In this document: piece by piece, positions 3,258 through 44,288 of the stretch | Numbering within the stretch: the first letter of the stretch is position 1 | Layout of the letters: every line of letters begins with the position of its first letter | Sequence record: PZ386967.1 | Reading direction: 5' to 3' (one strand) | Length of the DNA: 64,000 bases | Source of the DNA: a phage | The notes under the pieces: model-generated | Seen by the model: only the letters and a program-made list of their open reading frames with translations | Told to the model about the DNA's origin: nothing | Database searches by the model: none | Made by a program: the position numbers and the translations under genes

Positions 3258-3267
3258 GATAAATTCC

Positions 3268-4088: not shown

Positions 4089-4157
4089 TTCCGGTTCCTC
4101 TTAATAAACGAAGGGAAGTATATACTCCCCCTTCTTCAATAACCGCTGAATCTTTAT

Positions 4158-6939: not shown

Positions 6940-6942
6940 TAT

Positions 6943-7542
6943 TCACCCCTCCTCGTCGATGATTTCTTGCTCATCTTCGACAATCATGATACCTTCTGCG
7001 TCCAGATGAGAAAGTTCCATCAGATCATTATCGAATCCGTCTCCTTCCCTGATATAGAAGACTGGGACGACACGACGGCGGGTCTCTTCATACACGCTTT
7101 CAGAGATTCGATTGATATGGCGTACTACACTGTAGAGGTTCAGGCCACCAATACCACAGCCGATAGCAGGCAGGCCGACATAGACAGTTTCGTCTTTAGT
7201 TGCTTCCACAATTTCATGCACCTGCTCAAACAGGGTCTGAACAGAACTGATGACAGACGGCATGCGAGCGTTCGGGCCTGGATAAAACTGAGTGTAGAGG
7301 TTCGCGCCCCAAACGCCCTTGCTGTGGTCAAATGCATAGGACATACCACCCAGGCGTTGCTCTGGACCACGAGGGTCGTTCGCATCGACTTCGCGCAGCG
7401 CTGGGAAGTTGTTGCCGATGTGCAGAGCAATGCCCGCACCCATGGTAGACCAGCAGTTGGCACCGTGGGCAAAGATGTCGATCAGATTGAAGCTACAGGC
7501 GGCTTTCAGTAGATCGCCGCCATTGATTACATATGTGGTCAT
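6943..7542 (-). CDS. macro-domain protein (ADP-ribose binding/processing)
   Basis: YVINGGDLLKA...FAHGANCWSTMGAGIAL resembles the macro-domain Gly-rich ADP-ribose-binding motif; start moved to ATG 7542 with GGAGA SD. Confidence 0.6.
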   Translation of the reverse strand: MTTYVINGGDLLKAACSFNLIDIFAHGANCWSTMGAGIALHIGNNFPALREVDANDPRGPEQRLGGMSYAFDHSKGVWGANLYTQFYPGPNARMPSVISSVQTLFEQVHEIVEATKDETVYVGLPAIGCGIGGLNLYSVVRHINRISESVYEETRRRVVPVFYIREGDGFDNDLMELSHLDAEGIMIVEDEQEIIDEEG

Positions 7543-7781
7543 GCGTACTGTCTCCATTCAATAATGCTGTTGTCAACACATGACACTTGGATGATGCCTG
7601 TGCGGTGGTGATAATCAGTCATCTGCATGATAAAGTTGTTCCCATTGCGGATAATGGTGTTGACAACGATACCCTTGGCAGCAAGGCGTATTACAATGGC
7701 AGTGCAAAGACGGTCCATGTAACCGGACACAGAACCTGGTTCGAAGCATCGCTCGAACAGATTTTCAAATTCTGGGCTCAT
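7539..7781 (-). CDS. hypothetical protein
   Basis: 80-aa ORF with ATG start; its stop overlaps the macro-domain gene start (ATGA). Confidence 0.45.
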   Translation of the reverse strand: MSPEFENLFERCFEPGSVSGYMDRLCTAIVIRLAAKGIVVNTIIRNGNNFIMQMTDYHHRTGIIQVSCVDNSIIEWRQYA

Positions 7782-7831
7782 TTGATGTTACCAAACAAGA
7801 GGTCGAGGCGGTAATAATACCGCCTTTTTCT

Positions 7832-8242
7832 TCAATAGAGGTCTTCGGAAAAGAGTTCGCGGAATGGGGTTGTCTTCAGGCGCACCTGATTGATCTGTCC
7901 AGCTTCACGGGCTACGATGCATGCCTCTTCACGAGTAAGGAAGTTGCCCTGGTTGTCGATGAATCCCTGTTCGCGGGTATGGGTGGATTTAATGACGCCT
8001 GCCTCTTTCAGGATCTTGAGCTGGTTGTTCATGAATCGGCTGTGGTGACGGTCAGCAACGACGATTACATCACCATATTTGTTGGCGGCAGCGACCACAC
8101 GACGCTCCCAGGCACCTTCGGCAGGAAGTTCACGAGTGTACAGGGGAATCATCGTATCACCGATGTCATCCCCCTTCACCTGTGAGAACAACTTGCCTTC
8201 AGTTCCCGTTGGGAGTTCACGAAAATATCCCAGTAATTTCAT
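7832..8242 (-). CDS. hypothetical protein
   Basis: 136-aa ORF, ATG start; no family assigned confidently. Confidence 0.45.
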   Translation of the reverse strand: MKLLGYFRELPTGTEGKLFSQVKGDDIGDTMIPLYTRELPAEGAWERRVVAAANKYGDVIVVADRHHSRFMNNQLKILKEAGVIKSTHTREQGFIDNQGNFLTREEACIVAREAGQINQVRLKTTPFRELFSEDLY

Positions 8243-8293
8243 AATCTATTCAATCCAAATTTCAGGTTCAGAGATGTCGACCATATCCACTGT

Positions 8294-8524
8294 CTAGTTC
8301 TTCAGATCATGGAAACAGTCGCCGAGGAATTGTATTTTGCCGTCGGTCAGGAATAGATGGCAAAATGATGCTGGATCAGTTGCATTCACCAGCAGGCTCG
8401 GTGTGAACGTAGGCTCAATAACATTGTTGTTCCACGACCACATCGGACCTTGGGTTTCGCCCTTAATGTGATATAGATGAAGCATATCACACCCAGGACA
8501 ATGAAAATACAAGGAATCATCCAT
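8294..8524 (-). CDS. small Cys-rich protein (CPGC motif)
   Basis: 76-aa ORF with CPGC plus further Cys/His residues. Confidence 0.4.
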   Translation of the reverse strand: MDDSLYFHCPGCDMLHLYHIKGETQGPMWSWNNNVIEPTFTPSLLVNATDPASFCHLFLTDGKIQFLGDCFHDLKN

Positions 8525-8559
8525 AGACAGAAGTTTAGGGCTCAGAAGCTATGTTATGA

Positions 8560-8847
8560 TCAACCATCTACAGTGGCTTCAGGATCGTAGGGGCGCAGTT
8601 CACCAACCAGTTTCGGAAAGAGTGCAATCCCGAACAGGTTGAAAGAACGCATAGTGCCGACCATTGCAACATCTTCCCCTTCCTCGATATCTTTCAGGGC
8701 GCACATTGGGTAATATTCATCGACCTCTGGGTCTTCCGTCTCACCATAGAGACCAAACGCTACCTCTTCTTTGATAAAGCGAGGAACCAAGATATCAAAT
8801 AGGATAATGATGAATACCATAGGTGCTGCAGAACGGAGATAGAACAT
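8560..8847 (-). CDS. hypothetical protein
   Basis: 95-aa ORF, hydrophobic N-terminus. Confidence 0.4.
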   Translation of the reverse strand: MFYLRSAAPMVFIIILFDILVPRFIKEEVAFGLYGETEDPEVDEYYPMCALKDIEEGEDVAMVGTMRSFNLFGIALFPKLVGELRPYDPEATVDG

Positions 8848-8888: not shown

Positions 8889-10229
8889 TTATAGGCCAAG
8901 AGCCTTTTCAAGGTCATCAAGGTCTTCAGTGTAAAGATCGATGTCCTCTTTCTTACTTAATTCCTTGTGCTGTGCTTCAAGGTTCTCAATCTGCTTGAGT
9001 AGGCGCTCACGGGCATCCAGAGTAATAGACGACAGAGGCATCTTGAACAACTCGTCAAGATCACCACCAAAGTCCGGGTAGTCCTGCATGAACAGAGACT
9101 TCAGCACGTCAATCTTTTGGCGGAGATCAACACGCGTCGCCCATTCAATGAACACCGCCCGGTCACCCAGCTTGCGGATCCTGTCTGCCATGTCCTTCAA
9201 CAGATACTGGCGACGGTCTTCATACCGTGACAGGCGATAATTGAAGAACGGCAGCAACATGTCCCGCCAACCAGAATAACGATGAATGACCCCGTCTTCA
9301 TCCCAGGCCGTCCAAACAGGCTTGTTGGCTGAATACAACTTGAACATCTGCTCAACCTGATTATCATCCAGCTTGGACAGTTCGCCGCGCTTAAACACAA
9401 CCGTGATATCCCAGCCATCTTCCGTCGTGTCGTTGGCGTACTCGGTGAGGATACCTGCCTTGTACAGAGGCAGCAACACCTTGGTCTCATAGGTCTTGGC
9501 AAACCAACCCACTGGGACTTCGGTGATATGCAGGGTCGTGGCATTGACGCGACGGAAGATGCCGCGACTGTATGCTCTTCCTTCCTCAGTATAGCCTGTC
9601 TCTCCTTTGAAGCCGTTCCAGTACGGTTTTAAGTCTTTCGGGTCTTCGCCACGGAGAAGCGCTCTCAGGGCATTCAGCACGGACTTAACGCAATGACACG
9701 GGGTGTCGGTGGAATATCCGGTGCCGATACCATTGATCCCATTCACCAGGAACATGGGTAGGATGGGCAGAAAGAACTTCGGCTCCAGTCTTTCTTCACC
9801 AAGGTAGTTGTATTCCAAAATACCCTCATCCTCCTTGCGGAAGATCTTGCGGATAACGTCAGATACAGCGACGGATATGTATCGGGCAGATGAAGCATCA
9901 CGCCCCATGATAGAACCAAACTGGCCATCGCGGTCAAAGTACGGGATGTTGTTCGTGCCTGGGAACCCCTGAGCCATGTTCACGATAGTGCCGCTCATGT
10001 TCTCACCACCAGACTTGTAGTTGGTGCGAGCGGCGGCGAACATACCAAGGCGGTCAACAATCTCCTCCTTGTTGTACTCAAGAGCAGCGAAAAGGATCTT
10101 GCGCTGGCTTGGCTTGAGGCTGTCGATCAGCTGAGGGATTTGACGGATGCTGTTGACCACAGAAAACTGCTTATGGTCAGTGTTGACAAAGTCCGTTACA
10201 GTAATGCTCTTAGCAACCATCTTATTCAT
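8889..10229 (-). CDS. 52: DNA topoisomerase II medium subunit (GyrA-like, gp52-like)
   Basis: DSLKPSQRKILFAA matches the GyrA/ParC DNA-gate region; start moved to ATG 10229, overlapping the stop of the large-subunit gene. Confidence 0.8.
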   Translation of the reverse strand: MNKMVAKSITVTDFVNTDHKQFSVVNSIRQIPQLIDSLKPSQRKILFAALEYNKEEIVDRLGMFAAARTNYKSGGENMSGTIVNMAQGFPGTNNIPYFDRDGQFGSIMGRDASSARYISVAVSDVIRKIFRKEDEGILEYNYLGEERLEPKFFLPILPMFLVNGINGIGTGYSTDTPCHCVKSVLNALRALLRGEDPKDLKPYWNGFKGETGYTEEGRAYSRGIFRRVNATTLHITEVPVGWFAKTYETKVLLPLYKAGILTEYANDTTEDGWDITVVFKRGELSKLDDNQVEQMFKLYSANKPVWTAWDEDGVIHRYSGWRDMLLPFFNYRLSRYEDRRQYLLKDMADRIRKLGDRAVFIEWATRVDLRQKIDVLKSLFMQDYPDFGGDLDELFKMPLSSITLDARERLLKQIENLEAQHKELSKKEDIDLYTEDLDDLEKALGL

Positions 10230-16253: not shown

Positions 16254-17819
16254 TTACTTGTACAGGCCTGTCACGTCAATGGACTTGTGCTGGCGGTTGT
16301 ACTCGGCGGTGTAATCATCCAACACCAGGTATTCACAGCAGCGGATTTTGCTTGAACCAAAATCATCGGTGACCGACACGATGTCACGCGGGTTCAGCTT
16401 ACAGCGAACGACACGCTGTCCCACAGAACCGAAACACTCCTTCAGGTAGGCCAGGGAGCACACATGCAGACCATATGAACACAGTTCGGAGTTGTTGTCG
16501 TTCACGAATGAGCGAGCCATGCGCACGATAGTGCCTGGGGCGTTGCTGATCGTGTTGCTATGCTTGTCCATGTAGTTGCCGCGCACCGATTTGTAGAGGA
16601 TGATGTCACCATCTTCGTCAATTTCGATGTCAGAGTACGCCATGAACTCGTAGATGCGCCCAGACTGAACCAGAGAAGCTGACGGGTTCTGGAACATTTT
16701 GTCCATAAACTTCGCCATGCGGTCCAGGTTGTGGAAGTCACCCTTCAGCATCAGCGCCAGTACACGCTTGGCGATGGATGTGCCTGTGATGTCATGACCG
16801 GACCAGCGGACACGGTTGTCAGACACGTCTACCAGACCAGCAGCGTACTTCGCGATGGCTTCACGAGGACGCATCAGCGAGTATGCCAGCTTCACGTCTT
16901 TGTCTTTGATCGCCTGTACGATGCGGTCATAGGCCGGGTGTGAAGTGGTGATCGTTTCCGGCTTGCCGTCAATCGCGATAACAACGCTGTCAGGCAGAAT
17001 CAGGATCTGGTGTTCGTTCAGGAACACGTCCAGGTCTTTCGCGCCGAAGTCCTGCTTGGTCTTCTTATCATCAGCCACTTCTTCAACGTCTTTGACAGCG
17101 ACGGCGAATTCTACAGAAGACAGAGCCAGACGCAGGGTGCGACCGAGGATGCCATCAAAGTAACCAACACGGCGACGGGCATCCAAGGATCCACGGATAG
17201 GATAGGTTTCCCCGTCAACCACAACGCTGATTTCAACGTTGCTCGGAACTTTGTCCGCACCTTCTGACAGTGCCACAGAAATTTCTGCCATCTCGCCGAT
17301 AGCTTCAACATCGAAAGCGCAACTATCACCTTCCACAGGAGTCAATTCAGACTTTTCAAAGAAAGCCCCTTTGAAATTGCCGTCGTTAGTGAGACACAGA
17401 TACTTGTTGTGGTTCGGCAGATATGCCCCAACATACCATTCTGTGCCATCTTTGTCTTTGGCCGTGCCGCCCGGTTGGACCTCGAATACTTCTTGTTCTT
17501 CCGGCTTGATAGGAGAGATCACAGTTACCTTGTTTTTCTCCTCGGTAATCCGGACCAACAGAGCGCGAGCAATGGTCTTGGCGGACACACCGTACACCTT
17601 GGCCAAGAATGCATTGCTGACATTACCTGCCGCCGAATCCCTTTGGATATTGGCGATCTGATCTGTTGTCAGGGATTTCAGCGAAGTAGGGTCAACACCA
17701 ATTTCCGTGTCGGAAACACGTTGTACAGTCGAGCGGGGTATGCCCAACAGAGTAGCAATTGCGCTCTGGCTTTTGCCTTCCTTCAAATACTTCAGGATCT
17801 TTTCGTCAATCTTGTTCAT
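16254..17819 (-). CDS. rIIB: rIIB-like membrane-associated protein
   Basis: N-terminal HTH and C-terminal GLHVCS...RVVRCKLNPRDIVSV closely resemble recalled T4 rIIB (GLHVCSKSY...RVVKVKVHPRDVVSI); start moved to ATG 17819 (start uncertain). Confidence 0.85.
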   Translation of the reverse strand: MNKIDEKILKYLKEGKSQSAIATLLGIPRSTVQRVSDTEIGVDPTSLKSLTTDQIANIQRDSAAGNVSNAFLAKVYGVSAKTIARALLVRITEEKNKVTVISPIKPEEQEVFEVQPGGTAKDKDGTEWYVGAYLPNHNKYLCLTNDGNFKGAFFEKSELTPVEGDSCAFDVEAIGEMAEISVALSEGADKVPSNVEISVVVDGETYPIRGSLDARRRVGYFDGILGRTLRLALSSVEFAVAVKDVEEVADDKKTKQDFGAKDLDVFLNEHQILILPDSVVIAIDGKPETITTSHPAYDRIVQAIKDKDVKLAYSLMRPREAIAKYAAGLVDVSDNRVRWSGHDITGTSIAKRVLALMLKGDFHNLDRMAKFMDKMFQNPSASLVQSGRIYEFMAYSDIEIDEDGDIILYKSVRGNYMDKHSNTISNAPGTIVRMARSFVNDNNSELCSYGLHVCSLAYLKECFGSVGQRVVRCKLNPRDIVSVTDDFGSSKIRCCEYLVLDDYTAEYNRQHKSIDVTGLYK

Positions 17820-17850
17820 CTTGTAGTTCCCACGTTGGTTAACAGGACTA

Positions 17851-20607
17851 TTATGCCCTGATAATGGAATTTGAAATAACGTCCAAGTAATCCGAAGATT
17901 TTTCAATCGGGTTCAGGGCGCTTGGTTTGTAATTCTCTTTCAAGAACCGGACAACACGATGACGCTCGATGGTCAATCGGTTTTCCCGCCTTGCTTTCAA
18001 TGACGGAGTCCTCGATATATCAAACGGTGTAAATCCATGAAACCGCAACACATCCGAAGCGCATTCAAAGATCTGTAGCATCTGATGTTCTGAACGGAAT
18101 ATCTTTTCGTCACGCTCGTTGGCGTACAAATTCACGTTAAGAGAATGTATTGTGTCCTGGAAATGGCTAAATCGACGCTTGTCATTGATTGAAACCGGGG
18201 CTTTCGCCAGGCTTTGGTAATGACGTACAGTCTGCTCATCCAAGATATCGTCCACAACTTTCATTAACTTGTTGTAACGGCTGACCAATTTGCCATAACG
18301 ATCGTCTTCAACATCACCAAACGCCTGATGAACCAGATGGCTCCCGTATTTTAATCGATCCGCCCCAAGGCGCATGCGGCGGTATGATTCCAGTATGCGC
18401 TTGGCGCTATCGCGCTCCATCATAGGCTTCACGTTTTCCAACATGATCTTCAGGATTTCATCGATCGGTATGAAGACCTCTGGGAACTTCTTCATCATTG
18501 GCACGGATTTACGACGAGCCAAGAAGATTCGGTTGTGAACGTTCAACATATCGCTGATGTACACTGGCTTGCCTTCATCGTCGACACTGACTGCGTGCTC
18601 ATACAGAGATTTACGAATACCCCGCGCCGCCGCAGTCGTCAACGTTCTGTCCATCACCTGATGGATACACGCATGGCCAGACACCTCAATATAGACGATG
18701 CGCTCGCCCTTGTTGATGATATCTGAGATCTGGTCGCCCGTTAGTTCTTCATACTGGTATATGTCGAAGTTGCTGCGCGTGAACGGAAACAGGCCGGGGT
18801 CTTTGGTGACCGGGGGCGTGACATACGACAGTTCGTTCATGAACTTGACTTCAGCAGGCTCCAACACCGCACTCAGCCAATCGACGAACTTGTCGGCGAA
18901 GCACAGATAATCAACCGTCGTTTCTTCTTTACCAATCCAAGTTTCAAAGAAATCATAGAGAGCCTGAGAATTCTTGAACGCAGGGTTGTCCTTAGATTGG
19001 TTGCGCTTGGTGACATAGGATGTGTTCGGCTTGGCCACGATGACTATCGTCCCTGTATCTTTCAGCTGCTTGATCTTCAGGTTACGAGCACGAACACTAT
19101 CTTCGATCACCACAGTAACATGCTGGCCGCGATCAATCCACTTCTGGATTTCTGAAATGGTCAAATTACTGGACTCACCCCAGTCATAGAAGATCTCCAT
19201 AGAGAACGGTGATGACAGCTCATTGAACGGCGCGGTATGGTCATAATCGCGATCAATCTCAACAGGCAGCGGGTAACGGTAATATGAATCATGAAAGCGC
19301 TTGTCGGCCGGGTATTCCTTTTCAACCATCTTGCGGAACCCACTGCCGAACATTTCACTCAGTTTTACCTTCTCCATATACAGGGCAAGAGGACCACGCT
19401 TACACGCCAGCTCCAGGTCACGCATCTTTTCTGTCAAGATTGCATTGGCGGTGCCCTTAAACTCCTCAGAGAGCGTCTCACGCGTGAATTCGTCATATGA
19501 AAGGTCTTCACGCGACGGTGGTACGTTCAGCGATCCAAGTTCGAAGAACGTATAGGACGATGGAAACTTGCTCATGATGGAAGCAGTGTCCGGGTCCAGC
19601 TGGTCCAGGTCAATCGGGTACGACACGCCACCCATTACAGCATAATGGGTGTTCCCCTGGCCTTTCGGCTGGATGTACGTGTTGTTGACCTTGAAATCAT
19701 AACTGATATCTTCCCAGCTGAAGCGGTATGAAGCGTTCTCAACAATTGGACGTTGTTCAGGGCGCATAACACGACCAAGACGGACCAGTTCATCGGAGAA
19801 TGCAGAGAAACGAGCGTTCTTCACCGGGATCTTCACCGTCATACCGTTGAACTCATCGGTGTCTTCCGGTTTAGGATCACGGGTTTCAAGATCTTTGGTG
19901 ATCAGATCAACAGTCGGGATGCGCTTGGCATTCAGGTACATCAGGAAGCGATGGAGTTTACCGTCCATGCGGCTTTCCACAGTGAACGAATCCGATACCG
20001 CAAATGGTGATTTGGAGCCAAGACCGAATGCCCCAATCTGATCATCATCTTCTTCCTTCGTACTGTGGAAGAGAGTGGTATACAACCCAGGCGTACGAAT
20101 GATTTCACCATCTTCGCGACGGAACACTAGACCACCATTATAGAACGCAGGCACGCCGATGACCTCAGCTGAGTCAGGGATCTCGTCTTCCTTGACCACC
20201 ATGTTGCCTTCCAGCAGCACTTCATCTTCCTGCGCTGGGATAGGCTCGCCAATGATCTTCTCGAGTGGTAGACCGATGCCGTAATCACGGATTTCCAGCC
20301 ATGGCTCAAAGTCATCAGGCAGATGCACAACAACCTGCTTACCCTTCGGTGCAAGGTATTTGCTATGGCGGGCAGGAGGCGGAGTGAGAGGCGCGTAGTG
20401 GGATGCTACCATACGGTGCATACGATCACGCATGCCATGGGAGTCGATGGCGTTACAGACGGTTTCGCGCAGGGCTGCAGCCTCTTTGTAACGATACAAT
20501 GATGAGAACAGAGTCTCAAACATCTTATCGTTCATCTTCACGTTGAACGCCTGCCCCTGAATGGAAGACGACGAGCGGATAAAGTGCTCGGACTTGCGCA
20601 TTTTCAT
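17851..20607 (-). CDS. rIIA: rIIA-like protein (N-terminal GHKL ATPase fold)
   Basis: LRETVCNAIDSH and IGAFGLGSKSPF match recalled T4 rIIA (VRELITNMIDAH, IGGFGLGSKSPF); 918 aa. Confidence 0.85.
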   Translation of the reverse strand: MKMRKSEHFIRSSSSIQGQAFNVKMNDKMFETLFSSLYRYKEAAALRETVCNAIDSHGMRDRMHRMVASHYAPLTPPPARHSKYLAPKGKQVVVHLPDDFEPWLEIRDYGIGLPLEKIIGEPIPAQEDEVLLEGNMVVKEDEIPDSAEVIGVPAFYNGGLVFRREDGEIIRTPGLYTTLFHSTKEEDDDQIGAFGLGSKSPFAVSDSFTVESRMDGKLHRFLMYLNAKRIPTVDLITKDLETRDPKPEDTDEFNGMTVKIPVKNARFSAFSDELVRLGRVMRPEQRPIVENASYRFSWEDISYDFKVNNTYIQPKGQGNTHYAVMGGVSYPIDLDQLDPDTASIMSKFPSSYTFFELGSLNVPPSREDLSYDEFTRETLSEEFKGTANAILTEKMRDLELACKRGPLALYMEKVKLSEMFGSGFRKMVEKEYPADKRFHDSYYRYPLPVEIDRDYDHTAPFNELSSPFSMEIFYDWGESSNLTISEIQKWIDRGQHVTVVIEDSVRARNLKIKQLKDTGTIVIVAKPNTSYVTKRNQSKDNPAFKNSQALYDFFETWIGKEETTVDYLCFADKFVDWLSAVLEPAEVKFMNELSYVTPPVTKDPGLFPFTRSNFDIYQYEELTGDQISDIINKGERIVYIEVSGHACIHQVMDRTLTTAAARGIRKSLYEHAVSVDDEGKPVYISDMLNVHNRIFLARRKSVPMMKKFPEVFIPIDEILKIMLENVKPMMERDSAKRILESYRRMRLGADRLKYGSHLVHQAFGDVEDDRYGKLVSRYNKLMKVVDDILDEQTVRHYQSLAKAPVSINDKRRFSHFQDTIHSLNVNLYANERDEKIFRSEHQMLQIFECASDVLRFHGFTPFDISRTPSLKARRENRLTIERHRVVRFLKENYKPSALNPIEKSSDYLDVISNSIIRA

Positions 20608-21854: not shown

Positions 21855-21916
21855 CAGCGTTTGCTCCGGCGTTTGTTCTTCATCTTTCTTGGCTTGTCTG
21901 TCATGTTCCTGTCCAC

Positions 21917-21950
21917 GAAAAAGGGATAGAGCAATAATACCCTATCCCCT
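21917..21950 (-). terminator. rho-independent terminator with conserved 5' flank
   Basis: Minus strand reads CGTTCTTCAATAAAAGGGGATAGGG...CTATCCCTTTTT: hairpin plus U-run. Confidence 0.5.
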
Positions 21951-21965
21951 TTTATTGAAGAACGA

Positions 21966-22379
21966 TTAGTCTTCAGATTCTACTTTGCCGCCTCGTAGAT
22001 CCCGAACTGGTTTACCGTCCGGTGCCATCACATAAATGGTGTTGATTGTCTCAAACCAAGACAGCTGGTCAACACCCTCGGTGTATGGAGTCACCGGAAC
22101 AGAAGTCTTGACCTCTTTGCCTTTCGTGTTCGGATGTTCAACCACATCCAAGAACGCACATTTCCCGCTCGGAAGGATAACACCATCAGTAAACAGCACG
22201 ATCTTCTTGCGAGGGTTGCTGGCCTCACCCAGGCACACCACCAGATGATGGATCATCTCGGGGCGGTCAATCAACAAGTCGTCTTTGATAATCCCTTGCT
22301 TGATAGCAGAGATCACCACTTCATCCAACAGAGCCTGCTGTTGGTCCAGTGTCAGGGATTCAGTGAGTTTCACGCTCAT
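21966..22379 (-). CDS. hypothetical protein
   Basis: 137-aa ORF, ATG start. Confidence 0.45.
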   Translation of the reverse strand: MSVKLTESLTLDQQQALLDEVVISAIKQGIIKDDLLIDRPEMIHHLVVCLGEASNPRKKIVLFTDGVILPSGKCAFLDVVEHPNTKGKEVKTSVPVTPYTEGVDQLSWFETINTIYVMAPDGKPVRDLRGGKVESED

Positions 22380-22383
22380 GACA

Positions 22384-22953
22384 TCAGCCTTTGAAGTTAA
22401 TCGGTTTCTGAATACCAGCGTCGAACGCGGCCTGGGTACGGGTATCGCTCACCACCTGGCAAGTCTTGTCAAGGTCGATGCGCGGGTAGCCGAACATGCC
22501 AGCAATCAACGAACCAGGGAACTGAGCCAGCTTGGTTTCGTATATTGTGCAGATATCCAGCTTCTTGGTCTGGCTGATGCGGAATTCATCACGCCCAGAA
22601 CTGATCACCACCTGGATCTCTTTGTACAGGCTGGAATCGAACTGAATATTCTGCTCCTGGATCCACTGCATGACGGCCTTGGAACCATCAGCGCCATAAC
22701 GCCCTTCGAACGTGCCTTTGATCACTTCCTTCAGACCGTCTTTATACATGTCAGGAATCTGCGCCGTCTCCTGAACTTTGAGCGTGTAGTTGCTCAGGTA
22801 GTTCTCGGAGTCTTTGTTGAACTTCCTAACCTGCTGCTCAGTGCGGTTGAAGTCGTTGAAGTAGCTGATGACTGTACCGATGCCGAGAATCACTACACCC
22901 AGCAAAGCCAAACCAATTATCCAACCTGTTGCAATACCCTTAGATTGAGACAT
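22384..22953 (-). CDS. LemA-like membrane protein
   Basis: 189 aa; one N-terminal transmembrane helix then a soluble helical domain, LemA-family architecture; ATG with AGAGGAAG SD. Confidence 0.45.
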   Translation of the reverse strand: MSQSKGIATGWIIGLALLGVVILGIGTVISYFNDFNRTEQQVRKFNKDSENYLSNYTLKVQETAQIPDMYKDGLKEVIKGTFEGRYGADGSKAVMQWIQEQNIQFDSSLYKEIQVVISSGRDEFRISQTKKLDICTIYETKLAQFPGSLIAGMFGYPRIDLDKTCQVVSDTRTQAAFDAGIQKPINFKG

Positions 22954-22971
22954 TCTTACTTCCTCTTTTGA

Positions 22972-24084
22972 TTAAAAATTAAACGGATAACGACGACCAC
23001 CATTGTACTCCATTCGCTGCAATATGAAAATTGCGGTGAATGGTAAGCAACCCAGCAGAACAATAACCACAACTTCCCAGGTCTTGAGTTCCCGCCACTT
23101 CAGGTACTCCATTTCCTTCATCTCAACGCGGTTGTAGCCTTTGGTGATGTTAGCGACAACATCAGCCATGACACCGACGCCCATGTCGTGGCCTGTGAGA
23201 GTCATGCCATTGCGAGAGTGTAGTTCACGGTTATACATACCATCAGCGAACGAAGTGCTCTTACCCCAGTTGATCTTCAGATCTTTGCTGATGTCGGTCA
23301 CGACGATAACGTCGTTCTTTTTACCACCATCCCAAGCATAGACCAAGCCCTGGAAGTATTCAACTGGCTGACCGGATGTCACAACCCAGACGATATTGAC
23401 CTGACGTGAAGCACCTAATGTTTTCAGAGTATTGTTCAGATAGTCGTTCCAGTATGTGGTCGGTAACGCCAGGCCGGACACATTCAACACACGAGTGACA
23501 CGATAGTAGTCATAGACCTCAGGGTACTTGGGAATCTTGTCTTTGAAGCGCTCAGCAAACTGCTGGTCCGAGCGAGAGAACAGAGAGTCCTTGTTACCCA
23601 GCACATAGTTCATGTAGGAATGCTCACGGGCTGCGGGTTCGCCGATCTGAACCTGCGCCCAGCGCGGCGGTTGACCAAGACCACGGCGATCAATACGGTC
23701 AATCGTCAGATTACCGACAGTAGTCAACACATCCCAGTCCACGTCATATGAATGCTCATAACATGTACTGCAATGGCGAGTGCGGGTACAGGACTTGCTA
23801 CTGCCGGAGCCAGAGCACGATGTGGTGTAGTAGCAGTTGCATTCATATGAATGCTCACAGCTCACCTTATTCCGCTCCTTTGCAGTGACGTACCCGTTCA
23901 GGATCTCAACATCCCCTGAACTGCCAAGGGAGAACGCAGCATAAGCCCCCGCCTGAATCAGACAGGATAGCACCACTACAATCGCGGTCGCTATCAGAGT
24001 CTCTTTCGGCTCATGGGTCTTGCGGTGGTAGGCCACAAACAGGATAGCCAGTACCAATGGCACACCAAACAGGAGGTAGATCAT
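22972..24084 (-). CDS. membrane protein with TPM-like domain and Cys-rich insert
   Basis: 370 aa; N- and C-terminal transmembrane helices; VNIVWVVTSG...GKKNDVIVVTDISKDLKINWGK resembles the TPM-domain core; Cys-rich segment CEHSYECNCYYTTSCSG...CSTC. Confidence 0.4.
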   Translation of the reverse strand: MIYLLFGVPLVLAILFVAYHRKTHEPKETLIATAIVVVLSCLIQAGAYAAFSLGSSGDVEILNGYVTAKERNKVSCEHSYECNCYYTTSCSGSGSSKSCTRTRHCSTCYEHSYDVDWDVLTTVGNLTIDRIDRRGLGQPPRWAQVQIGEPAAREHSYMNYVLGNKDSLFSRSDQQFAERFKDKIPKYPEVYDYYRVTRVLNVSGLALPTTYWNDYLNNTLKTLGASRQVNIVWVVTSGQPVEYFQGLVYAWDGGKKNDVIVVTDISKDLKINWGKSTSFADGMYNRELHSRNGMTLTGHDMGVGVMADVVANITKGYNRVEMKEMEYLKWRELKTWEVVVIVLLGCLPFTAIFILQRMEYNGGRRYPFNF

Positions 24085-24467
24085 TTGGATTCACCGACGA
24101 GCTGCGCCTTGGTCATCCCAAGGAGTTGATCTTTATGCTCAGGATTGGCACCGTTCTTTAACAACAAATCCCAACGCTCTTCATGGTACTGTGGGTCCAG
24201 TGCTTCATCAAATGTGATGTGGTGGCGGAACATAACAGTTGCCACTGAATGGACACAATGAGCGGTTGCACGCTTCAGAGTATGCTCTGATGTGATGTGC
24301 TTTTGGTATTCAATCCCCATCAAATCCAGTTCTCTGAAAAGACAAGATAATGACAGGACACCCTGCGAATGCAACGCGACGATAGTGTCTTTCTTAGGGT
24401 GCAGCATACCATCTGTTTCTTTCATGAACAGATCATACAGATACTGCTTGTATTCAGACTGTGTCAT
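24081..24467 (-). CDS. hypothetical protein (His-rich)
   Basis: 128-aa ORF; stop overlaps the start of the upstream-numbered gene (ATGA). Confidence 0.45.
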   Translation of the reverse strand: MTQSEYKQYLYDLFMKETDGMLHPKKDTIVALHSQGVLSLSCLFRELDLMGIEYQKHITSEHTLKRATAHCVHSVATVMFRHHITFDEALDPQYHEERWDLLLKNGANPEHKDQLLGMTKAQLVGESK

Positions 24468-24535
24468 TTAGATTCTCCCATGACGAGTAGAGACATATCT
24501 TCAATTCGTTGTATTGCCATGATGTAGATCCTTGC

Positions 24536-24578
24536 AAAAAGAAAGGGGAACGGGCTAATATTAACCCATTCCCCTTTA
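24536..24578 (-). terminator. rho-independent terminator with conserved 5' flank
   Basis: Minus strand reads GCGTTCTTCAATAAAGGGGAATGGG...CCCGTTCCCCTTTCTTTTT. Confidence 0.5.
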
Positions 24579-24603: not shown

Positions 24604-24771
24604 TTACTTTTTCTTCAGCTCTTCCAGCTTGGCTTCAATTTGGTCCAGAATCTCTTTACCTTTCTGGACGATGGCTTCACCATCTTGCGCGTGTTTACGG
24701 AAGACCAAAGCACCAGCGATGAAGCCGACAACCGCGCCAGGAAGCGCATAAACCAGCAGATCTTGTAACAT
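24604..24771 (-). CDS. small membrane protein (55 aa, below the ORF-track size cutoff)
   Basis: Hand-translated ATG..TAA frame with hydrophobic segment YALPGAVVGFIAGALVF, sitting between the 411-aa gene and the terminator. Confidence 0.3.
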   Translation of the reverse strand: MLQDLLVYALPGAVVGFIAGALVFRKHAQDGEAIVQKGKEILDQIEAKLEELKKK

Positions 24772-24807: not shown

Positions 24808-26043
24808 TCAGCGTTTCAAGAGTGCCATGAGGTTGACGCTGCTGGACTTCGGCTTGTCCTCAACCTTGCGCACAGGCATCTTCAGGTTCGTACATACCTC
24901 GGATGGCTCCCAGCGCGTACCCTTTTGCAGGTGCCAGATATGCAGAGGAACACCAGTCTCAAAGAACACAGGCATCTTCCACTTCTGGACGCCTGGAACG
25001 TGCCCTGCAGGAGCCTTTTCGCACAACAGGGTATCTGGCAGCCAGAGCGAACGGGCTTCCCAGAGCGCTGCGCAGGAGTATTCAGGCCAGACGCGTTCCA
25101 TGTAGTCTATTTCATCCCAGGTACGCTCTGCGTCCCACCCGATGTAACGGGTATTCTTCAGTCGGAAGAATTTCTTCAGCCAACAAGCACCGGAGGTTTC
25201 AAAGTTCAGACGGTTGATGAACGTCAGGTGTCCGAACTCAGCCACACAATCCTGGAACGCCTGCTCAAGGTCGGCCTCAAGGATGTCACACTCTTCATCC
25301 GTGATAGGGCAACCGTTGATCTTTTTCTTCCCGTGTTTAGTCACCCAATCGTCACGGTTGGACAAGAACGCCGCGCCATTACGGTTGGACTCGCTTCCAT
25401 CACGATCACGCAGCATGAAGCCAGGGACGTCAATGGTGTATTCGTTCCCGAAGACCATGTTCAGGGCTTCCAGGAAGTTCCAGGCGCTCAGGCGACCGAA
25501 GTATTTCCAGGACATCGCCGTGTCCCACAGCTGGGTGAATTGTTCTGTCTTATCGATGCACACCAACATCCCACGGAAAGCGTCATATTGAGTACGGCCA
25601 GCCAGCCAGTCAATATAGGACTGAACACACGGAATCATCTTGGACTTGCGGTAGCGGCAATCGGTATCGAATCGCATGCGATCAAAGTTCAGATTATACC
25701 AATCAGAGAAGCGCTGCATCTCTTCCTTAGACTGAGGCGGCACAGGGAACTCACTGTAGATCGTCCACGGCCCGACGGCGTTATAGCAACAACCCCACAG
25801 GAATGCCATCCAGATCTTGCGCTCGACTTTCTGTTCGAGGCTGATGCCTTCAGTGACTTCGATCGCATAGTCCATCAGACGCATCTGCTGGTTGTGCTCT
25901 TCTGTGTAGGACAGCGCCTCCACCCAAGCCTTGAGCAGGTACATGCGATTCTCAGGCTTGCGATAATCAACAGCCAGGTCAATCGGGTACTTCCATTCAG
26001 CCGGAGGTGTATAGCCCGTCGGCATTTTAGATAAATGATGCAT
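24808..26043 (-). CDS. hypothetical protein (candidate DNA-modification enzyme by context only)
   Basis: 411-aa ORF, ATG start, Trp/Cys-rich; no motif recognised. Confidence 0.5.
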   Translation of the reverse strand: MHHLSKMPTGYTPPAEWKYPIDLAVDYRKPENRMYLLKAWVEALSYTEEHNQQMRLMDYAIEVTEGISLEQKVERKIWMAFLWGCCYNAVGPWTIYSEFPVPPQSKEEMQRFSDWYNLNFDRMRFDTDCRYRKSKMIPCVQSYIDWLAGRTQYDAFRGMLVCIDKTEQFTQLWDTAMSWKYFGRLSAWNFLEALNMVFGNEYTIDVPGFMLRDRDGSESNRNGAAFLSNRDDWVTKHGKKKINGCPITDEECDILEADLEQAFQDCVAEFGHLTFINRLNFETSGACWLKKFFRLKNTRYIGWDAERTWDEIDYMERVWPEYSCAALWEARSLWLPDTLLCEKAPAGHVPGVQKWKMPVFFETGVPLHIWHLQKGTRWEPSEVCTNLKMPVRKVEDKPKSSSVNLMALLKR

Positions 26044-26404
26044 CTTTCGCTTCCTCTTCAGGAGCCACAGCTTCAGGCTCGGGAGCCAACTGAATGTCTT
26101 CTGGTTTCACAAACCCCATCGGACGTTCCCACATATCGATGAAGCGGCGGTCGGCGGTCACAAACCAAAGACGGGCTGCAGTGTGGGTCTTACCCGAGAT
26201 GAACATCTGGGCATTCGTCTGGGTACGGAACGGAGCCGCCTGCAACCACTTACCGAAGTCTTTGGACGACGGATTGGCATTCAGCTGGAACTGAGGGATG
26301 ACGCAGTTCTTTTCAGGAATAAGGCGCACGGCAGTAATGTGCTTGGCGTTTCCGGTGTAGTCAATCGCAACAGCCACAGCATCGCGAGGGATTTGAATTT
26401 TCAT
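26027..26404 (-). CDS. hypothetical protein
   Basis: 125-aa ORF overlapping its neighbours by a few codons. Confidence 0.45.
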   Translation of the reverse strand: MKIQIPRDAVAVAIDYTGNAKHITAVRLIPEKNCVIPQFQLNANPSSKDFGKWLQAAPFRTQTNAQMFISGKTHTAARLWFVTADRRFIDMWERPMGFVKPEDIQLAPEPEAVAPEEEAKDASFI

Positions 26405-26604
26405 TTTGGTTCCTTGAATATTTTATAGCCAGCAGCGCCGATAGCCATAATCGCGCCGATACAATACAACATGGTCAGGTTCATCTTCTCTGAGGTTGTT
26501 AAGTCCAGAGGGGTGAAATGATAGGCTAGGGCAGTACACATTGAAACGGCTGCCATAACCAGACCAATGAACAACAGATAATTAGACAACCGTTTCATGA
26601 TCAC
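26401..26604 (-). CDS. small membrane protein
   Basis: 67-aa ORF with two hydrophobic helices; ATGA coupling. Confidence 0.4.
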   Translation of the reverse strand: MIMKRLSNYLLFIGLVMAAVSMCTALAYHFTPLDLTTSEKMNLTMLYCIGAIMAIGAAGYKIFKEPK

Positions 26605-27518
26605 CCCTTCTTCATCAGGTCAAGGAGAGAGCGCGACGCTGCCTTCGTTGCTTCTGGCTGGGCGCTCGCCTTGGTTTTAGTTTTGGATGCCTTCTGCGGC
26701 TTCTCAGGGACTCTGTGCGCCAAAGGATCCTGGCCGCCGATTTCACGAGTCATCGGATTGGTTTCACAGTAGGCGTAGAAGTCTTTGGTGTCCATGTTAA
26801 CTTCACGCAGTTCGGACCGTATCTGATGACAAATCGCATTACCCACAACCCACAGCGGGGCGTCGTATGGGAGCACCGCCAACTCGGACTGCTGTTTGGT
26901 CGTGAACTCCTGGGTGTTGGTCTCTGGCGCTTTATACAGGATATCCTGTCCGCTGTAATCATCAACAGCCACAGTGAAGCCCAGCGCCAGCATTTCGGCC
27001 TTCGACTTCTCAAACTCCTTGGAGTAAGATTCGTTGCGTGACCAGCCGGAGTTCCCTGCTTCTTTACCAGATCGACCACGGATACGAGCATCGTACTGAT
27101 AGCGGTCGGGGTACGCAAAGTACAGCAGCGCCAATGATTCAATCGGATAGTTCTTGAACATCCATTCAGGACGCCATTTGTCCGACAGCATGAGGGGTTC
27201 ACCCTCACACACCAGAGTGTATCCCTGAACCAACCAGCACTTGATTAGATCACGAGCAATATCGCCTGAGCCTGTAGCAGCATGGATTGCATCCATTGAA
27301 GTCCAGGAAGCCAGGCCGGATTTGTTAGACACGGTGTACTGTCCAACGAAGATTAACTTCAGCTCTCCGAACTTCAGGCCAAACGGGCGAGTCTTGTCAC
27401 CAACGGTGTAGGTCAGTTCGGTAGGCTCCAGCTTCGTACGGAGCCATTCGATGAACTGGACCACTCTCGTACCCTTGCCCGTGGCCGAGGTGCCTTTCAC
27501 TACGATAATTTTTGCCAT
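26601..27518 (-). CDS. P-loop kinase (polynucleotide kinase-like; candidate DNA or nucleotide kinase)
   Basis: N-terminal Walker A KIIVVKGTSATGKGT, similar in layout to T4 Pnk N-terminus (KIILTIGCPGSGKST); 305 aa. Confidence 0.55.
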   Translation of the reverse strand: MAKIIVVKGTSATGKGTRVVQFIEWLRTKLEPTELTYTVGDKTRPFGLKFGELKLIFVGQYTVSNKSGLASWTSMDAIHAATGSGDIARDLIKCWLVQGYTLVCEGEPLMLSDKWRPEWMFKNYPIESLALLYFAYPDRYQYDARIRGRSGKEAGNSGWSRNESYSKEFEKSKAEMLALGFTVAVDDYSGQDILYKAPETNTQEFTTKQQSELAVLPYDAPLWVVGNAICHQIRSELREVNMDTKDFYAYCETNPMTREIGGQDPLAHRVPEKPQKASKTKTKASAQPEATKAASRSLLDLMKKG

Positions 27519-36492: not shown

Positions 36493-36581
36493 TGGCGGAA
36501 GGTGAAGGATTCGAACCTTCGGGGGCTAAAAGCCCCACTCGATTAGCAGTCGAGTCCCTTAAACCTCTCGGGCAACCTTCC
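36493..36581 (-). tRNA. tRNA-Ser (anticodon GCU)
   Basis: Hand-folded cloverleaf: acceptor GGAAGGT/ACCTTCC, anticodon loop CTGCTAA, long variable arm, T-loop GGTTCGAATCC, encoded CCA. Confidence 0.8.
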
Positions 36582-36801
36582 AATTTGGACGGGCTTCACA
36601 CCCGATTGAGCATTTGATCTGCTGTAGCCCAACTCCCCGCGCTTCTCAGCGCCGATTGGTTAACTGGCGACCAGTGCCTTCTGGTTCGATCTCCTGGAAC
36701 TTTACAGGCTTTGCGCCCGACCATTTCTGGAAGTTGGGGCATCGTTTCCGATGTGGAGTCACCCCATTTTATACACAGCTGGCTGCAACGCTTACTGTGT
36801 T

Positions 36802-36886
36802 TGGTGTGAGTGGATGGATTCGAACCACCGCGCTGTTACGGGGAGATTTACAGTCTCCTGCATTCGACCGCTCTGCCACACTCACA
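36802..36886 (-). tRNA. tRNA-Tyr (anticodon GUA)
   Basis: Acceptor GTGAGTG/CACTCAC, anticodon stem GGAGA/TCTCC with loop CTGTAAA, long variable arm, T-loop TTCGAAT, encoded CCA. Confidence 0.75.
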
Positions 36887-37142
36887 TTTGGTCTGCCGCT
36901 GCGTGCTGGGCCACGCTCGAGGACATCGGCCATCCTTCCTCAGCTAATCCACGCAGCGGTAGATTTGTATCAGAGTGTCCGGTGTAGCAACCCGTGAGGT
37001 GCGCACTACTGTAGCCTCTACACTCTGAATTTGGTGGGCGTTACTATCGTCGTCTTCGGATTCCGTTCGGCTATTGGACAGAGGCTTGGAGCTTGTCGGT
37101 CGCGTACTTTATGCCTATTCACTTTCGTTCACACCCATTGTC

Positions 37143-37218
37143 TGGCGACGATGGCAGGACTTGAACCTGCGACATACGGTTTAACAGACCGCCGTTCTAC
37201 CGACTGAACTACATCGTC
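37143..37218 (-). tRNA. tRNA-Asn (anticodon GUU)
   Basis: Acceptor GACGATG/CATCGTC, anticodon loop CTGTTAA, T-arm CAGG-TTCAAGT-CCTG, encoded CCA. Confidence 0.8.
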
Positions 37219-37389
37219 TTGCAAATCACTATACCATATAAAGTTTATTGAACAAACATTTATTTTACAACAAACTGTATTGGCGGGGTCTGAGGCTTTT
37301 CACCTCACCTGCTGGGTTTGGCCGCCCAGCCGTTCTCTATGAGGATTCACTGTCCGGACAGCTATCCATTAAACTATCGCCCCTCAATA

Positions 37390-37466
37390 TGGTGATCCTG
37401 ATTGGGTTTGAACCAATGACCAATGAATTATGAGTTCACTGCTCTAACCGACTGAGCTACAGGACC
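37390..37466 (-). tRNA. tRNA-Met (anticodon CAU; initiator, elongator or Ile2 not resolved)
   Basis: Acceptor GGTCCTG/CAGGATC, D-arm TAGCTCAGTCGGTTAGAGCA, anticodon loop CTCATAA, T-loop GGTTCAAACCC, encoded CCA. Confidence 0.8.
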
Positions 37467-43044: not shown

Positions 43045-43045
43045 A

Positions 43046-44236: not shown

Positions 44237-44243
44237 AGTGAAA

Positions 44244-44283: not shown

Positions 44284-44288
44284 TTGAA

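What the first reader, a model, noticed from the sequence alone, without database searches (positions are those of the whole stretch)
22384..24084. LemA-like and TPM-domain-like membrane protein pair with a Cys-rich insert
Adjacent genes encode a LemA-like single-pass membrane protein and a 370-aa protein with terminal transmembrane helices, a TPM-like core (GKKNDVIVVTDISKDLKINWGK) and a dense Cys cluster. LemA-TPM pairs are widespread bacterial envelope modules of unknown function; in a phage such a pair could serve superinfection exclusion, lysis timing or envelope stress manipulation.
Basis: inference. Interest (0 to 1): 0.5.

Follow-up and report, generated by a model that had tools for sequence, protein, structure and literature searches.

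The report
Phage LemA–TPM inner-membrane gene pair
Two adjacent genes of this large virulent phage encode inner-membrane proteins that are distant, rebuilt relatives of the bacterial LemA and TPM envelope proteins; the pair travels together in about 1% of sequenced phages, but its job is still unknown.

Summary
Two minus-strand ORFs fill 22384-24084 of an Ackermannviridae (Agtrevirus-like) genome. A is 189 aa with one TM helix. B is 370 aa with two N-terminal TM helices and one C-terminal TM helix.

A is a divergent LemA. Pfam alone fails (13.8 bits against a cut-off of 26.2). A family profile matches real LemA proteins at hhalign 97.4% (95.5% without the TM helix; shuffled controls at most 1.4%), and its best PDB hit is LemA 2etd.

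Charge bias and co-varying cysteines place both soluble parts in the periplasm.

The genes are strictly co-conserved. B is followed by A in 79 of 79 assessable viral loci, across Ackermannviridae, ICP1, Aeromonas T4-like, T5-like and jumbo phages, and on 0.6-0.9 Mb plasmids. No third gene is conserved with them. They sit among early and nucleotide-metabolism genes.

Function is inferred only. Most likely they form a periplasm-facing complex that assembles or stabilises a membrane complex during infection. It is a new variant of a known kind, of moderate interest.

The parts
22972..24084 (-). Gene B: a 370-aa inner-membrane protein. Layout: 2 TM helices, a Cys/His-rich beta-domain, a TPM domain, a third TM helix, and a short basic tail.
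   Evidence: ORF. PHROG 2087, E 1.5e-162. AF2 model with pLDDT 90.3 and pTM 0.79. Three TM helices in 41 of 43 family members.
23944..24084 (-). B residues 1-47: two N-terminal TM helices (1-19 and 29-47) joined by a short basic cytoplasmic loop.
   Evidence: Hydropathy and K/R counts. The N-terminus has 0 K/R and loop 1 has about 2 K/R in 9 residues across the family. AF2 helices are H2-20 and H26-54.
23485..23922 (-). B residues 55-200: a periplasmic Cys/His-rich beta-domain. It matches no Pfam or PDB family and is the most conserved part of B.
23095..23472 (-). B residues 205-330: a TPM-fold domain carrying the W-x-GGKKNDV loop.
23017..23073 (-). B residues 338-356: the C-terminal TM helix, followed by a basic cytoplasmic tail (RMEYNGGRRYPFNF).
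   Evidence: Hydropathy, and a mean of 3.7 K/R in the C-terminal tail. Family tails often end in RRY, RRF, RRW or RSW.
22384..22953 (-). Gene A: a 189-aa single-pass membrane protein that is a divergent LemA homologue.
   Evidence: ORF. PHROG 1383, E 2e-85. hhalign against 8 LemA proteins gives 97.4%, E 1.4e-11. PDB profile hit to 2etd, E 8.9e-4.
22864..22920 (-). A residues 12-30: an N-terminal TM anchor, oriented N-in, C-out.
   Evidence: One TM helix in 43 of 43 members. The N-terminal side is more basic than the C-terminal side (K/R 1.56 and D/E 0.19, against 1.02 and 1.44).
22471..22863 (-). A residues 31-161: a periplasmic LemA-like helical domain. It includes the family motif GRYGxDGSKAxxQWIQEQN and the cysteine pair C135/C165.
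   Evidence: hhalign without the TM helix gives 95.5%, E 1.6e-8 over 128 columns. C135 and C165 are both present in 24 members and both absent in 19, never one alone. The AF2 model is all-helical, pLDDT 83.5.
22959..22967 (-). Shine-Dalgarno sequence (AAGAGGAAG), 5 nt upstream of A's ATG, in the 18-nt gap between B and A.
   Evidence: Read directly from the sequence.
24542..24577 (-). Terminator-like hairpin (16-bp stem plus a T run), two genes upstream. It is the probable 5' boundary of the transcription unit that holds the 128-aa gene, B, A and the genes after them.
   Evidence: Consensus scan and the sequence itself. This is context only. It was not shown to function, and it is not conserved with the pair.

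Best explanation
Shown:
- A and B form a self-contained two-gene module, inherited as a unit, that encodes two inner-membrane proteins.
- B enters the membrane through two N-terminal helices and a C-terminal helix.
- A is a type-II single-pass protein.

Well supported by the charge and cysteine analysis:
- B exposes about 280 residues to the periplasm. These comprise a disulfide-stapled Cys/His-rich beta-domain and a TPM-fold domain.
- A's divergent LemA helical domain also faces the periplasm.

Inferred:
- The two proteins form a complex at the periplasmic face of the inner membrane. They are made early or in the middle of infection.
- Other TPM proteins dock on the extracytoplasmic face of large membrane complexes: TLP18.3 and Psb32 on photosystem II, AscF on the CIII-CIV supercomplex, MOLO-1 on a receptor channel. 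By analogy, B would act as a non-enzymatic assembly or stabilising factor for a host or phage membrane complex, with LemA as its membrane-proximal scaffold.
- The effect would be to keep the envelope functional during the long infection cycle of a large virulent phage that has shut down host gene expression.

The conserved beta-domain, with its possible His2-Cys-Asp metal site, is the most likely target-recognition element.
For: Identity:
- LemA: hhalign 97.4%, or 95.5% without the TM helix, with controls at 1.4% or below. LemA 2etd is the top PDB profile hit. PF04011 is the most recurrent weak Pfam hit, in 8 of 43 members.

Topology:
- The distribution of K/R follows the positive-inside rule.
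- The cysteines co-vary perfectly in pairs: A C135/C165; B C84/C105 and C90/C99. This fits periplasmic disulfide bonds.

Module:
- B is followed by A on the same strand in 79 of 79 assessable viral loci, and in 22 of 29 loci from genome assemblies, with one further locus in the reverse order.
- No third gene is conserved among 63 diverse loci.

Gene context: the neighbours are DNA-modification genes and rIIA in this window, and tRNA nucleotidyltransferase, ribonucleotide reductase and thymidylate synthase in other phages. They are never lysis or structural cassettes.

Functional analogy:
- Bacterial LemA genes sit next to genes for TPM/YgcG, M48 protease or DUF2207 proteins.
- Published comparative analyses propose that TPM domains assist the assembly of membrane-linked complexes and doubt the reported phosphatase activity (PMC11237479, PMC12419801).
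Against: - No experiment exists for this pair or for any homologue. No paper on it was found.
- The function of bacterial LemA itself is unknown, so the analogy is weak.
- Physical interaction between A and B was not tested.
- The phage proteins are far from the bacterial ones: the gene order is reversed, there is an extra 2TM and beta-domain, and neither reaches the Pfam threshold. Their function may therefore have diverged.
- The strong conservation of a Cys/His/Asp-rich domain would also fit an enzyme.
Confidence: 0.4

Rival explanations
1. Superinfection exclusion. The periplasm-facing complex would alter or occupy an inner-membrane or periplasmic site needed for DNA entry by later-arriving phages. 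This is analogous in role, though not in homology, to T4 Imm/Sp or P22 SieA.
For: Both proteins face the periplasm from the inner membrane. They are encoded among early or middle genes and not in late cassettes. They occur only in virulent phages and giant plasmids and are absent from 5,426 complete E. coli genomes.
Against: From general knowledge, known exclusion proteins are small, lineage-specific and fast-evolving. This pair is conserved across phages of Gamma-, Beta- and Alphaproteobacteria, Prevotella megaphages and contigs binned with candidate-phyla MAGs. Its beta-domain is 45-72% identical among representatives. That argues for a universal target and not a phage-specific entry route.
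Confidence: 0.18
2. Periplasmic enzyme. The conserved Cys/His/Asp cluster of the beta-domain would bind a metal and catalyse a reaction on an envelope substrate such as peptidoglycan, a lipid-linked precursor or a periplasmic protein. Alternatively the TPM domain would act as a phosphatase. LemA would serve as a membrane adaptor.
For: The beta-domain is the most conserved region, with near-invariant H78, C108, H111, D114 and D116. These five residues are lost together in the two GAP32-like members. Some TPM proteins have been reported to have phosphatase or ATPase/ADPase activity (cited in PMC11237479).
Confidence: 0.14
3. Counter-defence. The complex would buffer or mask the membrane perturbations that trigger membrane-sensing abortive-infection systems (the Rex, Kiwa or Psp type). 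It would act alongside rIIA/rIIB, which lie just downstream in this genome.
For: rIIA is 1.8 kb downstream on the same strand. The pair is located at the membrane. It behaves as an accessory module that has spread across unrelated phage lineages.
Against: The proximity to rII is not conserved outside Ackermannviridae. There is no PADLOC or anti-defence family match beyond a weak TM/coil hit to LeoBC, E 8e-4.
Confidence: 0.1
4. Lysis timing control. The pair would work as a holin, antiholin or spanin-like accessory that sets the moment of lysis.
For: The architecture is a membrane anchor plus a periplasmic domain. In this respect it superficially resembles T4 holin T and antiholin RI (general knowledge).
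Against: No holin, antiholin or spanin family matched. The pair is never seen next to an endolysin or lysis cassette in the contexts examined. Conservation across very different lysis systems would be unexpected.
Confidence: 0.07
5. Virion structural protein. This is how RefSeq and PHROG 1383 (category 'head and packaging') label protein A.
For: The annotation 'virion structural protein' or 'putative structural protein' appears in many records.
Against: A is a LemA homologue with an N-terminal membrane anchor. It is encoded among early genes. The label appears to be propagated: the mass-spectrometry table for Erwinia phages RAY and Deimos-Minion lists no gp45 or gp46, the position of protein A's homologue in the related phage Special G, and that experiment used crude lysates. 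A membrane protein can also co-purify with virions on vesicles.
Confidence: 0.04

Closest known systems
Bacterial LemA family (Pfam PF04011; structure 2etd, Thermotoga maritima TM0961)
   Same: An N-terminal single TM anchor followed by a helical domain of about 150 residues. The alignment runs nearly full length (hhalign 97.4%, 137 columns). The C-terminal motif is retained (Y-x2-x-L-x-x-FPG...FGYP against YN..I..FP....FGF). The gene is adjacent to a TPM gene.
   Different: Below the Pfam gathering score (13.8 against 26.2 bits). It has its own highly conserved insert motif, GRYGxDGSKAxxQWIQEQN, and in 24 of 43 members a co-varying cysteine pair. The predicted fold does not superpose significantly on 2etd. 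The gene lies downstream of its partner, not upstream.
Bacterial YgcG-type TPM proteins (Pfam PF04536), encoded next to LemA
   Different: There is no cleavable signal peptide. Instead there are two N-terminal TM helices and an extra beta-domain of about 145 residues. The Gly-rich ...GGGxSGSW tail is reduced to ...RRYPF, RRW and similar endings. This protein gives no Pfam hit. The gene order is TPM then LemA.
TLP18.3, Psb32 and LMTP1 (photosystem II repair and assembly) and AscF (mycobacterial CIII-CIV supercomplex): characterised TPM-domain proteins
   Different: Sequence identity is only 7-15%. There is no photosystem or actinobacterial supercomplex in the hosts of these phages. Those proteins have no LemA partner or Cys-rich beta-domain.
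Bacillus subtilis YdjG/YdjH (PspA operon): a zinc-ribbon membrane protein plus a TPM protein
   Same: It combines a Cys-rich element, a TPM domain and membrane anchoring in an envelope-stress context, as described in PMC11237479.
   Different: In B. subtilis these are separate proteins, partnered with PspA and a band-7 protein. No homology to YdjG was tested or found here. No PspA or band-7 gene accompanies the phage pair.

Membership tests
LemA (PF04011) | Score at or above the Pfam gathering threshold (26.2 bits) | tested here: not met
   13.8 bits, E 0.051, covering residues 125-158 only. Eight of 43 family members give sub-threshold hits, best E 0.0016.
LemA (PF04011) | Profile-level homology to bona fide LemA proteins over the whole domain | tested here: met
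   hhalign of A1 against 8 LemA proteins: 97.4%, E 1.4e-11, 137 columns. Without TM helices: 95.5%, E 1.6e-8. Twenty shuffled controls gave at most 1.4% and the reversed control 0.7%. The PDB profile search puts 2etd first, E 8.9e-4. A custom LemA HMM hits family A ORFs at up to 38.7 bits.
LemA (PF04011) | N-terminal single TM helix followed by a helical domain of about 150 aa | tested here: met
   One TM helix in 43 of 43 members. The AF2 model is all-helical, pLDDT 83.5.
LemA (PF04011) | Three-dimensional fold superposes on the solved LemA structure (2etd) | tested here: inconclusive
LemA-TPM bacterial envelope module | LemA gene immediately adjacent to, and co-directional with, a TPM-domain gene | tested here: met
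   The two are adjacent on the same strand in 79 of 79 assessable viral loci. The order, however, is TPM then LemA, the reverse of Legionella, Burkholderia and Enterococcus.
TPM domain (PF04536) | Score at or above the Pfam gathering threshold | tested here: not met
   The window protein gives no PF04536 hit at E <= 1. Ten of 43 family members give weak hits, best E 1.8e-4.
TPM domain (PF04536) | TPM (Rossmann-like alpha/beta) fold | tested here: met
TPM domain (PF04536) | Conserved loop W/x-G-x-K-x-N-G-V after the second helix, in register with the canonical TPM sequence | tested here: met
   W251, G253, G254, K255, K256, N257 and D258 are invariant or near-invariant. hhalign aligns this loop with W..G.kdkNNGVLL of the Legionella, Burkholderia and Enterococcus TPM proteins, though only at E 1.3e-3 and probability 18%.
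TPM domain (PF04536) | Phosphatase or nucleotide/metal-binding activity reported for some members | not testable with these tools
   This needs biochemistry. The literature is divided on whether TPM domains are enzymes at all.
Virion structural protein (PHROG 1383 label) | Physical presence in purified virions | not testable with these tools
   Only annotation labels were found. In the one proteomics table checked (phages RAY and Deimos-Minion) no gp45 or gp46 entry was found; gp46 is the number of protein A's homologue in the related phage Special G. The gene number in RAY or Deimos-Minion itself was not mapped, and that experiment used crude lysates.

The most novel reading that the evidence does not exclude
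The pair could be a hallmark envelope-takeover device of large virulent phages and giant plasmids. Under this reading it is an inner-membrane complex whose previously undescribed periplasmic Cys/His-rich, possibly metal-binding, beta-domain recognises a universal bacterial envelope machine. Candidates include the respiratory or PMF-generating complexes, Sec/YidC, or the HtpX/FtsH quality-control proteases. The complex would reprogramme or protect that machine during infection. If so, the phage version would also give the first functional handle on the unexplained bacterial LemA-TPM modules.
Probability: 0.2. Interest if true: 0.7.

Novelty: new variant of a known kind. Interest (0 to 1): 0.45.

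Why it matters
LemA and TPM proteins are very widespread in bacteria. They are often encoded side by side and often lie in envelope-stress contexts, yet neither has an established molecular function.

This work shows that a rebuilt LemA-TPM pair is kept as an indivisible unit by about 1% of sequenced phages, across many unrelated lineages of large virulent phages, and by megaplasmids. Compared with the bacterial module it has an extra conserved periplasmic domain and the reverse gene order. Such conservation implies a strong selective function at the periplasmic face of the inner membrane during infection.

Phages such as ICP1, CBA120 and AV101 are genetically tractable, and a phage deletion should have a measurable fitness read-out. 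The pair therefore makes the long-open question of what LemA-TPM modules do directly testable.

It also corrects database labels. A is probably not a virion structural protein, and B is not a featureless hypothetical protein.

Tried and rejected
1. Direct library scans of the two proteins. Pfam, NCBIfam and PADLOC gave nothing above threshold. LemA scored 13.8 bits, there was no TPM hit, and the weak LeoBC, Spore_III_AF and DUF948 hits cover only the TM/coil region.
2. A profile of family B against PDB sequences gave only a chance LolA hit, E 1.4.
4. The afdb50 fold library was not available, so the beta-domain could not be compared with AlphaFold DB models.
5. The third homologous-protein search, run with the profile, listed only close family members and no LemA-annotated tail.
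6. A search for a conserved third partner gene found none. The only other recurrent ORF 'clusters' are shadow ORFs overlapping A and B.
7. The 347-aa protein lying between two LemA genes in Providencia was considered as a possible bacterial B homologue. On inspection it is a different multi-TM protein, and no alignment was run.
8. Literature searches for LemA or TPM in phages, Ackermannviridae, ICP1 and jumbo phages found nothing relevant. Several hits were false matches (author names, TPM meaning transcripts per million, Enterococcus lemanii).
9. A DNA search of 5,426 E. coli genomes for the pair, and for a Providencia lemA gene, gave no match. The second result says little about whether E. 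coli has a LemA.
10. The origin of the 'virion structural protein' label could not be traced to mass-spectrometry data.
Full report
**1. What is there**

The window comes from an Ackermannviridae (Aglimvirinae, Agtrevirus-like) virulent phage. The region 21900-24500 is 93-98% identical to Escherichia phages YX22, PC3 and vB_EcoM-RPN242, and about 90% identical to Shigella phage AG3.

Two minus-strand ORFs lie exactly at the reported coordinates:
- B is 22972..24084 (370 aa).
- A is 22384..22953 (189 aa).

B's ATG overlaps the stop codon of the upstream 128-aa gene. A starts 18 nt after B's stop, behind a GAGGA ribosome-binding site. The next gene starts 5 nt after A's stop. A strong terminator-like hairpin at 24577-24542 lies two genes upstream and probably marks the start of the transcription unit.

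The neighbouring genes are:
- the thymidine-hypermodification genes: amino acid:DNA transferase at 24808-26043 and 5-hmdU DNA kinase at 26601-27518;
- a DUF7181 protein;
- rIIA at 17851-20607.

This is an early/middle, DNA-metabolism neighbourhood. It is neither a lysis cassette nor a structural cassette.

**2. Protein A is a divergent LemA**

Pfam alone does not support the assignment. PF04011 scores 13.8 bits (E 0.05) against a gathering cut-off of 26.2 bits, and the match covers only residues 125-158. PHROGs places A in phrog_1383, labelled 'virion structural protein'. One GenBank record (RPN242 gp191) and one UniRef entry call it LemA.

I aligned 43 homologues (alignment A1). The evidence from that alignment is:
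- The profile's best PDB hit is the LemA protein of Thermotoga maritima, 2etd. E is 8.9e-4, matching residues 32-160 to chain residues 10-155.
- LemA is the most recurrent weak Pfam hit among the members, in 8 of 43.
- I fetched seven plasmid-borne genes annotated 'LemA family protein'. Profile-profile comparison of A1 against them plus 2etd gives probability 97.4%, E 1.4e-11, over 137 columns.
- With the TM helices removed the result is still 95.5%, E 1.6e-8. Twenty column-shuffled controls reach at most 1.4%, a reversed control 0.7%, and an unrelated TPM alignment 0.4%.
- A small HMM built from the bona fide LemA proteins hits family A ORFs in other phages at up to 38.7 bits.

**3. Protein B is a TPM protein with an extra domain**

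No Pfam, NCBIfam, PADLOC or PDB sequence hit exists for B.

The AF2 model built on 43 homologues is confident (pLDDT 90.3, pTM 0.79). Its layout is:
- two N-terminal helices;
- a beta-rich domain (residues about 55-200);
- an alpha/beta domain (residues about 205-330);
- a C-terminal TM helix.

PF04536 is the most recurrent weak Pfam hit in the family, in 10 of 43 members, best E 1.8e-4.

The Cys-rich segment is not an insert in the TPM domain. It is a separate upstream beta-domain and the most conserved part of the protein. An exhaustive phmmer search with this domain finds 576 representatives at 50% identity. In all 150 listed hits it lies at about residues 55-200, and most of these proteins are 340-390 aa long. 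The architecture is therefore fixed. Nothing in Pfam or the PDB resembles this domain.

**4. Topology**

A has one TM helix in all 43 homologues. Its N-terminal side is more basic than the side after the helix, which indicates an N-in, C-out orientation.

B has three TM helices in 41 of 43 homologues. Its N-terminus carries no charge, the first loop is basic, and the C-terminal tail is basic. This places the 280-residue central part in the periplasm.

The cysteine patterns agree with this:
- In A, C135 and C165 are both present (24 members) or both absent (19 members), and never one alone.
- In B, C84 and C105 are lost together, and C90 and C99 are lost together.
- In B, C108, H78, H111, D114 and D116 are lost together in the two GAP32-like members.

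I read this as periplasmic disulfide bonds plus a possible His2-Cys-Asp metal site. That reading is an inference. The model coordinates could not be inspected.

**5. Co-conservation**

tblastn finds A in 502 phage records and B in 487, with nearly identical host distributions. The phages include:
- Ackermannviridae;
- Vibrio phage ICP1;
- Aeromonas Straboviridae (phiAS5, PX29; per the AG3 record's annotation notes, Aeh1);
- T5-like Vibrio and Pectobacterium phages;
- Acinetobacter phages of about 100 kb;
- PhiW-14 and phiM12;
- Rak2-like, Agrican357-like, XacN1 and FLC9 jumbo phages.

A alone is also found in Lak megaphages.

In 80 IMG/VR loci retrieved with B, 79 have A immediately downstream on the same strand. 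The one exception is a contig that ends 90 bp after B. Clustering all ORFs from 63 diverse loci finds no third conserved gene.

Among one genome for each of 185,579 prokaryotic species, only 29 loci encode B. Most are MAG contigs. Twenty-two of them have A downstream and one has A upstream of B.

The pair is absent from 5,426 complete E. coli genomes. B does occur on 0.6-0.94 Mb 'plasmids' of Vibrio, Variovorax and Photobacterium. In the two inspected (V. vulnificus and Variovorax), it is followed by an ORF of A's size and sits among hypothetical genes.

**6. Comparison with the bacterial module**

In annotated bacterial records, LemA is followed by one of several partners:
- a TPM/YgcG protein in Legionella, Burkholderia and Enterococcus;
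- an M48 protease in Bacteroides;
- a DUF2207 protein in Sulfitobacter.

The TPM and DUF2207 partners end in a TM helix plus a Gly-rich tail finishing in ...SGSW or ...GRW. Many B-family tails end in RRY, RRF, RRW or RSW, which may be a reduced version of that tail.

The phage pair differs in four ways:
- the gene order is reversed;
- it has the extra 2TM and beta-domain;
- both proteins fall below the curated family thresholds;
- A carries its own conserved motif, GRYGxDGSKAxxQWIQEQN.

**7. Mechanism**

No experimental work on the pair was found.

Characterised TPM proteins sit on the extracytoplasmic face of large membrane complexes: photosystem II repair and assembly factors, and a CIII-CIV supercomplex subunit. 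Recent comparative analyses argue that TPM domains assist the assembly of membrane-linked complexes and are not phosphatases.

I therefore favour a periplasm-facing A-B complex that assembles or stabilises a host or phage membrane complex during infection. My confidence in this mechanism is about 0.4. Confidence in the identity, topology and module structure is much higher.

The rival explanations, all compatible with the data to different degrees, are:
- superinfection exclusion (0.18);
- an enzyme centred on the Cys/His/Asp site (0.14);
- counter-defence against membrane-sensing abortive-infection systems (0.10);
- lysis timing (0.07);
- a true virion component (0.04).

The 'virion structural protein' label could not be traced to data. 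It also conflicts with the membrane anchor and the early-gene context.

**8. Verdict**

The finding is a new variant of a known kind, a virus-specific and rebuilt LemA-TPM module. It is not something categorically new, and its function is unknown. Interest is moderate (0.45). The main value is that it offers a tractable system for an unexplained, very widespread bacterial gene pair, and that it adds a new conserved periplasmic domain.

Noticed in passing
L121 (V. vulnificus FORC_036 plasmid, 925 kb) 6839-8571; L122 (Variovorax sp. WDL1 plasmid 2, 816 kb) 6869-8688; also Photobacterium damselae NZ_CP090497.1: Non-mobilizable 'plasmids' of 0.6-0.94 Mb carry the same B-then-A pair. The flanking genes are almost all hypothetical proteins, DUF262 proteins and nucleases. 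These replicons may be phage-like giant elements.
   Followed up: partly
L093 (Achromobacter anxifer LMG 26857, 487-kb contig) 5968-7699: In this isolate genome the pair sits beside RecA, a YqaJ-like recombinase, a thymidine kinase and an MscS-like protein. Whether the region is a prophage, a giant plasmid or chromosomal was not resolved.
   Followed up: partly
L102 (Candidatus Kaiserbacteria MAG contig) 5834-7521 and 9390-9971: A single 13.9-kb contig carries both the phage-type B/A pair and a canonical LemA gene (207 bits to the LemA HMM).
   Followed up: no
L096 (MAG contig labelled Rickettsia typhi) 341-1992: This is the only locus seen with the opposite order, A then B. Several MAGs labelled as CPR, Rickettsia or Vampirovibrionales carry the pair on short contigs, which is probably phage DNA that was binned into those MAGs.
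   Followed up: no
window 24542-24577 (-): A very strong terminator-like hairpin (16-bp stem followed by CTTTTTGC). It lies between a 55-aa TM-protein gene (24604-24771) and the 128-aa gene that precedes B.
   Followed up: partly
window 24808-27518 (-): Thymidine hypermodification genes: amino acid:DNA transferase (PF18724, E 7e-60) and 5-hmdU DNA kinase 2 (PF18747, E 3e-158). Small membrane-protein ORFs lie among them (26401-26604 and 24604-24771).
   Followed up: no
window 17851-20607 (-) and 16254-17906 (-): An rIIA homologue (phrog_3661, E 0), followed by a 550-aa ORF that is probably rIIB. Both lie on the same strand, downstream of the pair.
   Followed up: no
window 36493-37466 (-): A cluster of four tRNA genes: Ser-GCT, Tyr-GTA, Asn-GTT and Met-CAT.
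   Followed up: no
window 42000-56000 (+): G+C content drops to 0.41-0.46, against about 0.50 elsewhere in the window. The dip spans four large plus-strand ORFs (44259-47342, 47697-50126, 50661-53180, 53229-55145). This fits the exchangeable tail-spike genes of Ackermannviridae.
   Followed up: no
window 22285-22971 (+): A 228-aa ORF antisense to gene A. It is a shadow ORF: its relatives in other loci appear only as overlaps of A and B.
   Followed up: yes
L009 (Providencia alcalifaciens) 2935-5493: A bacterial locus with the gene order LemA, a 347-aa multi-TM protein with a C-terminal beta-region, a second LemA, and a 130-aa membrane protein. This is a different kind of LemA partnership from TPM, M48 or DUF2207.
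   Followed up: partly
bacterial partner proteins in L006, L008, L010 and L011: LemA-adjacent TPM/YgcG and DUF2207 proteins all end in a Gly-rich cytoplasmic tail that terminates in ...SGSW, ...SGRW or ...GGGW. This shared C-terminal signature has no known meaning.
   Followed up: no
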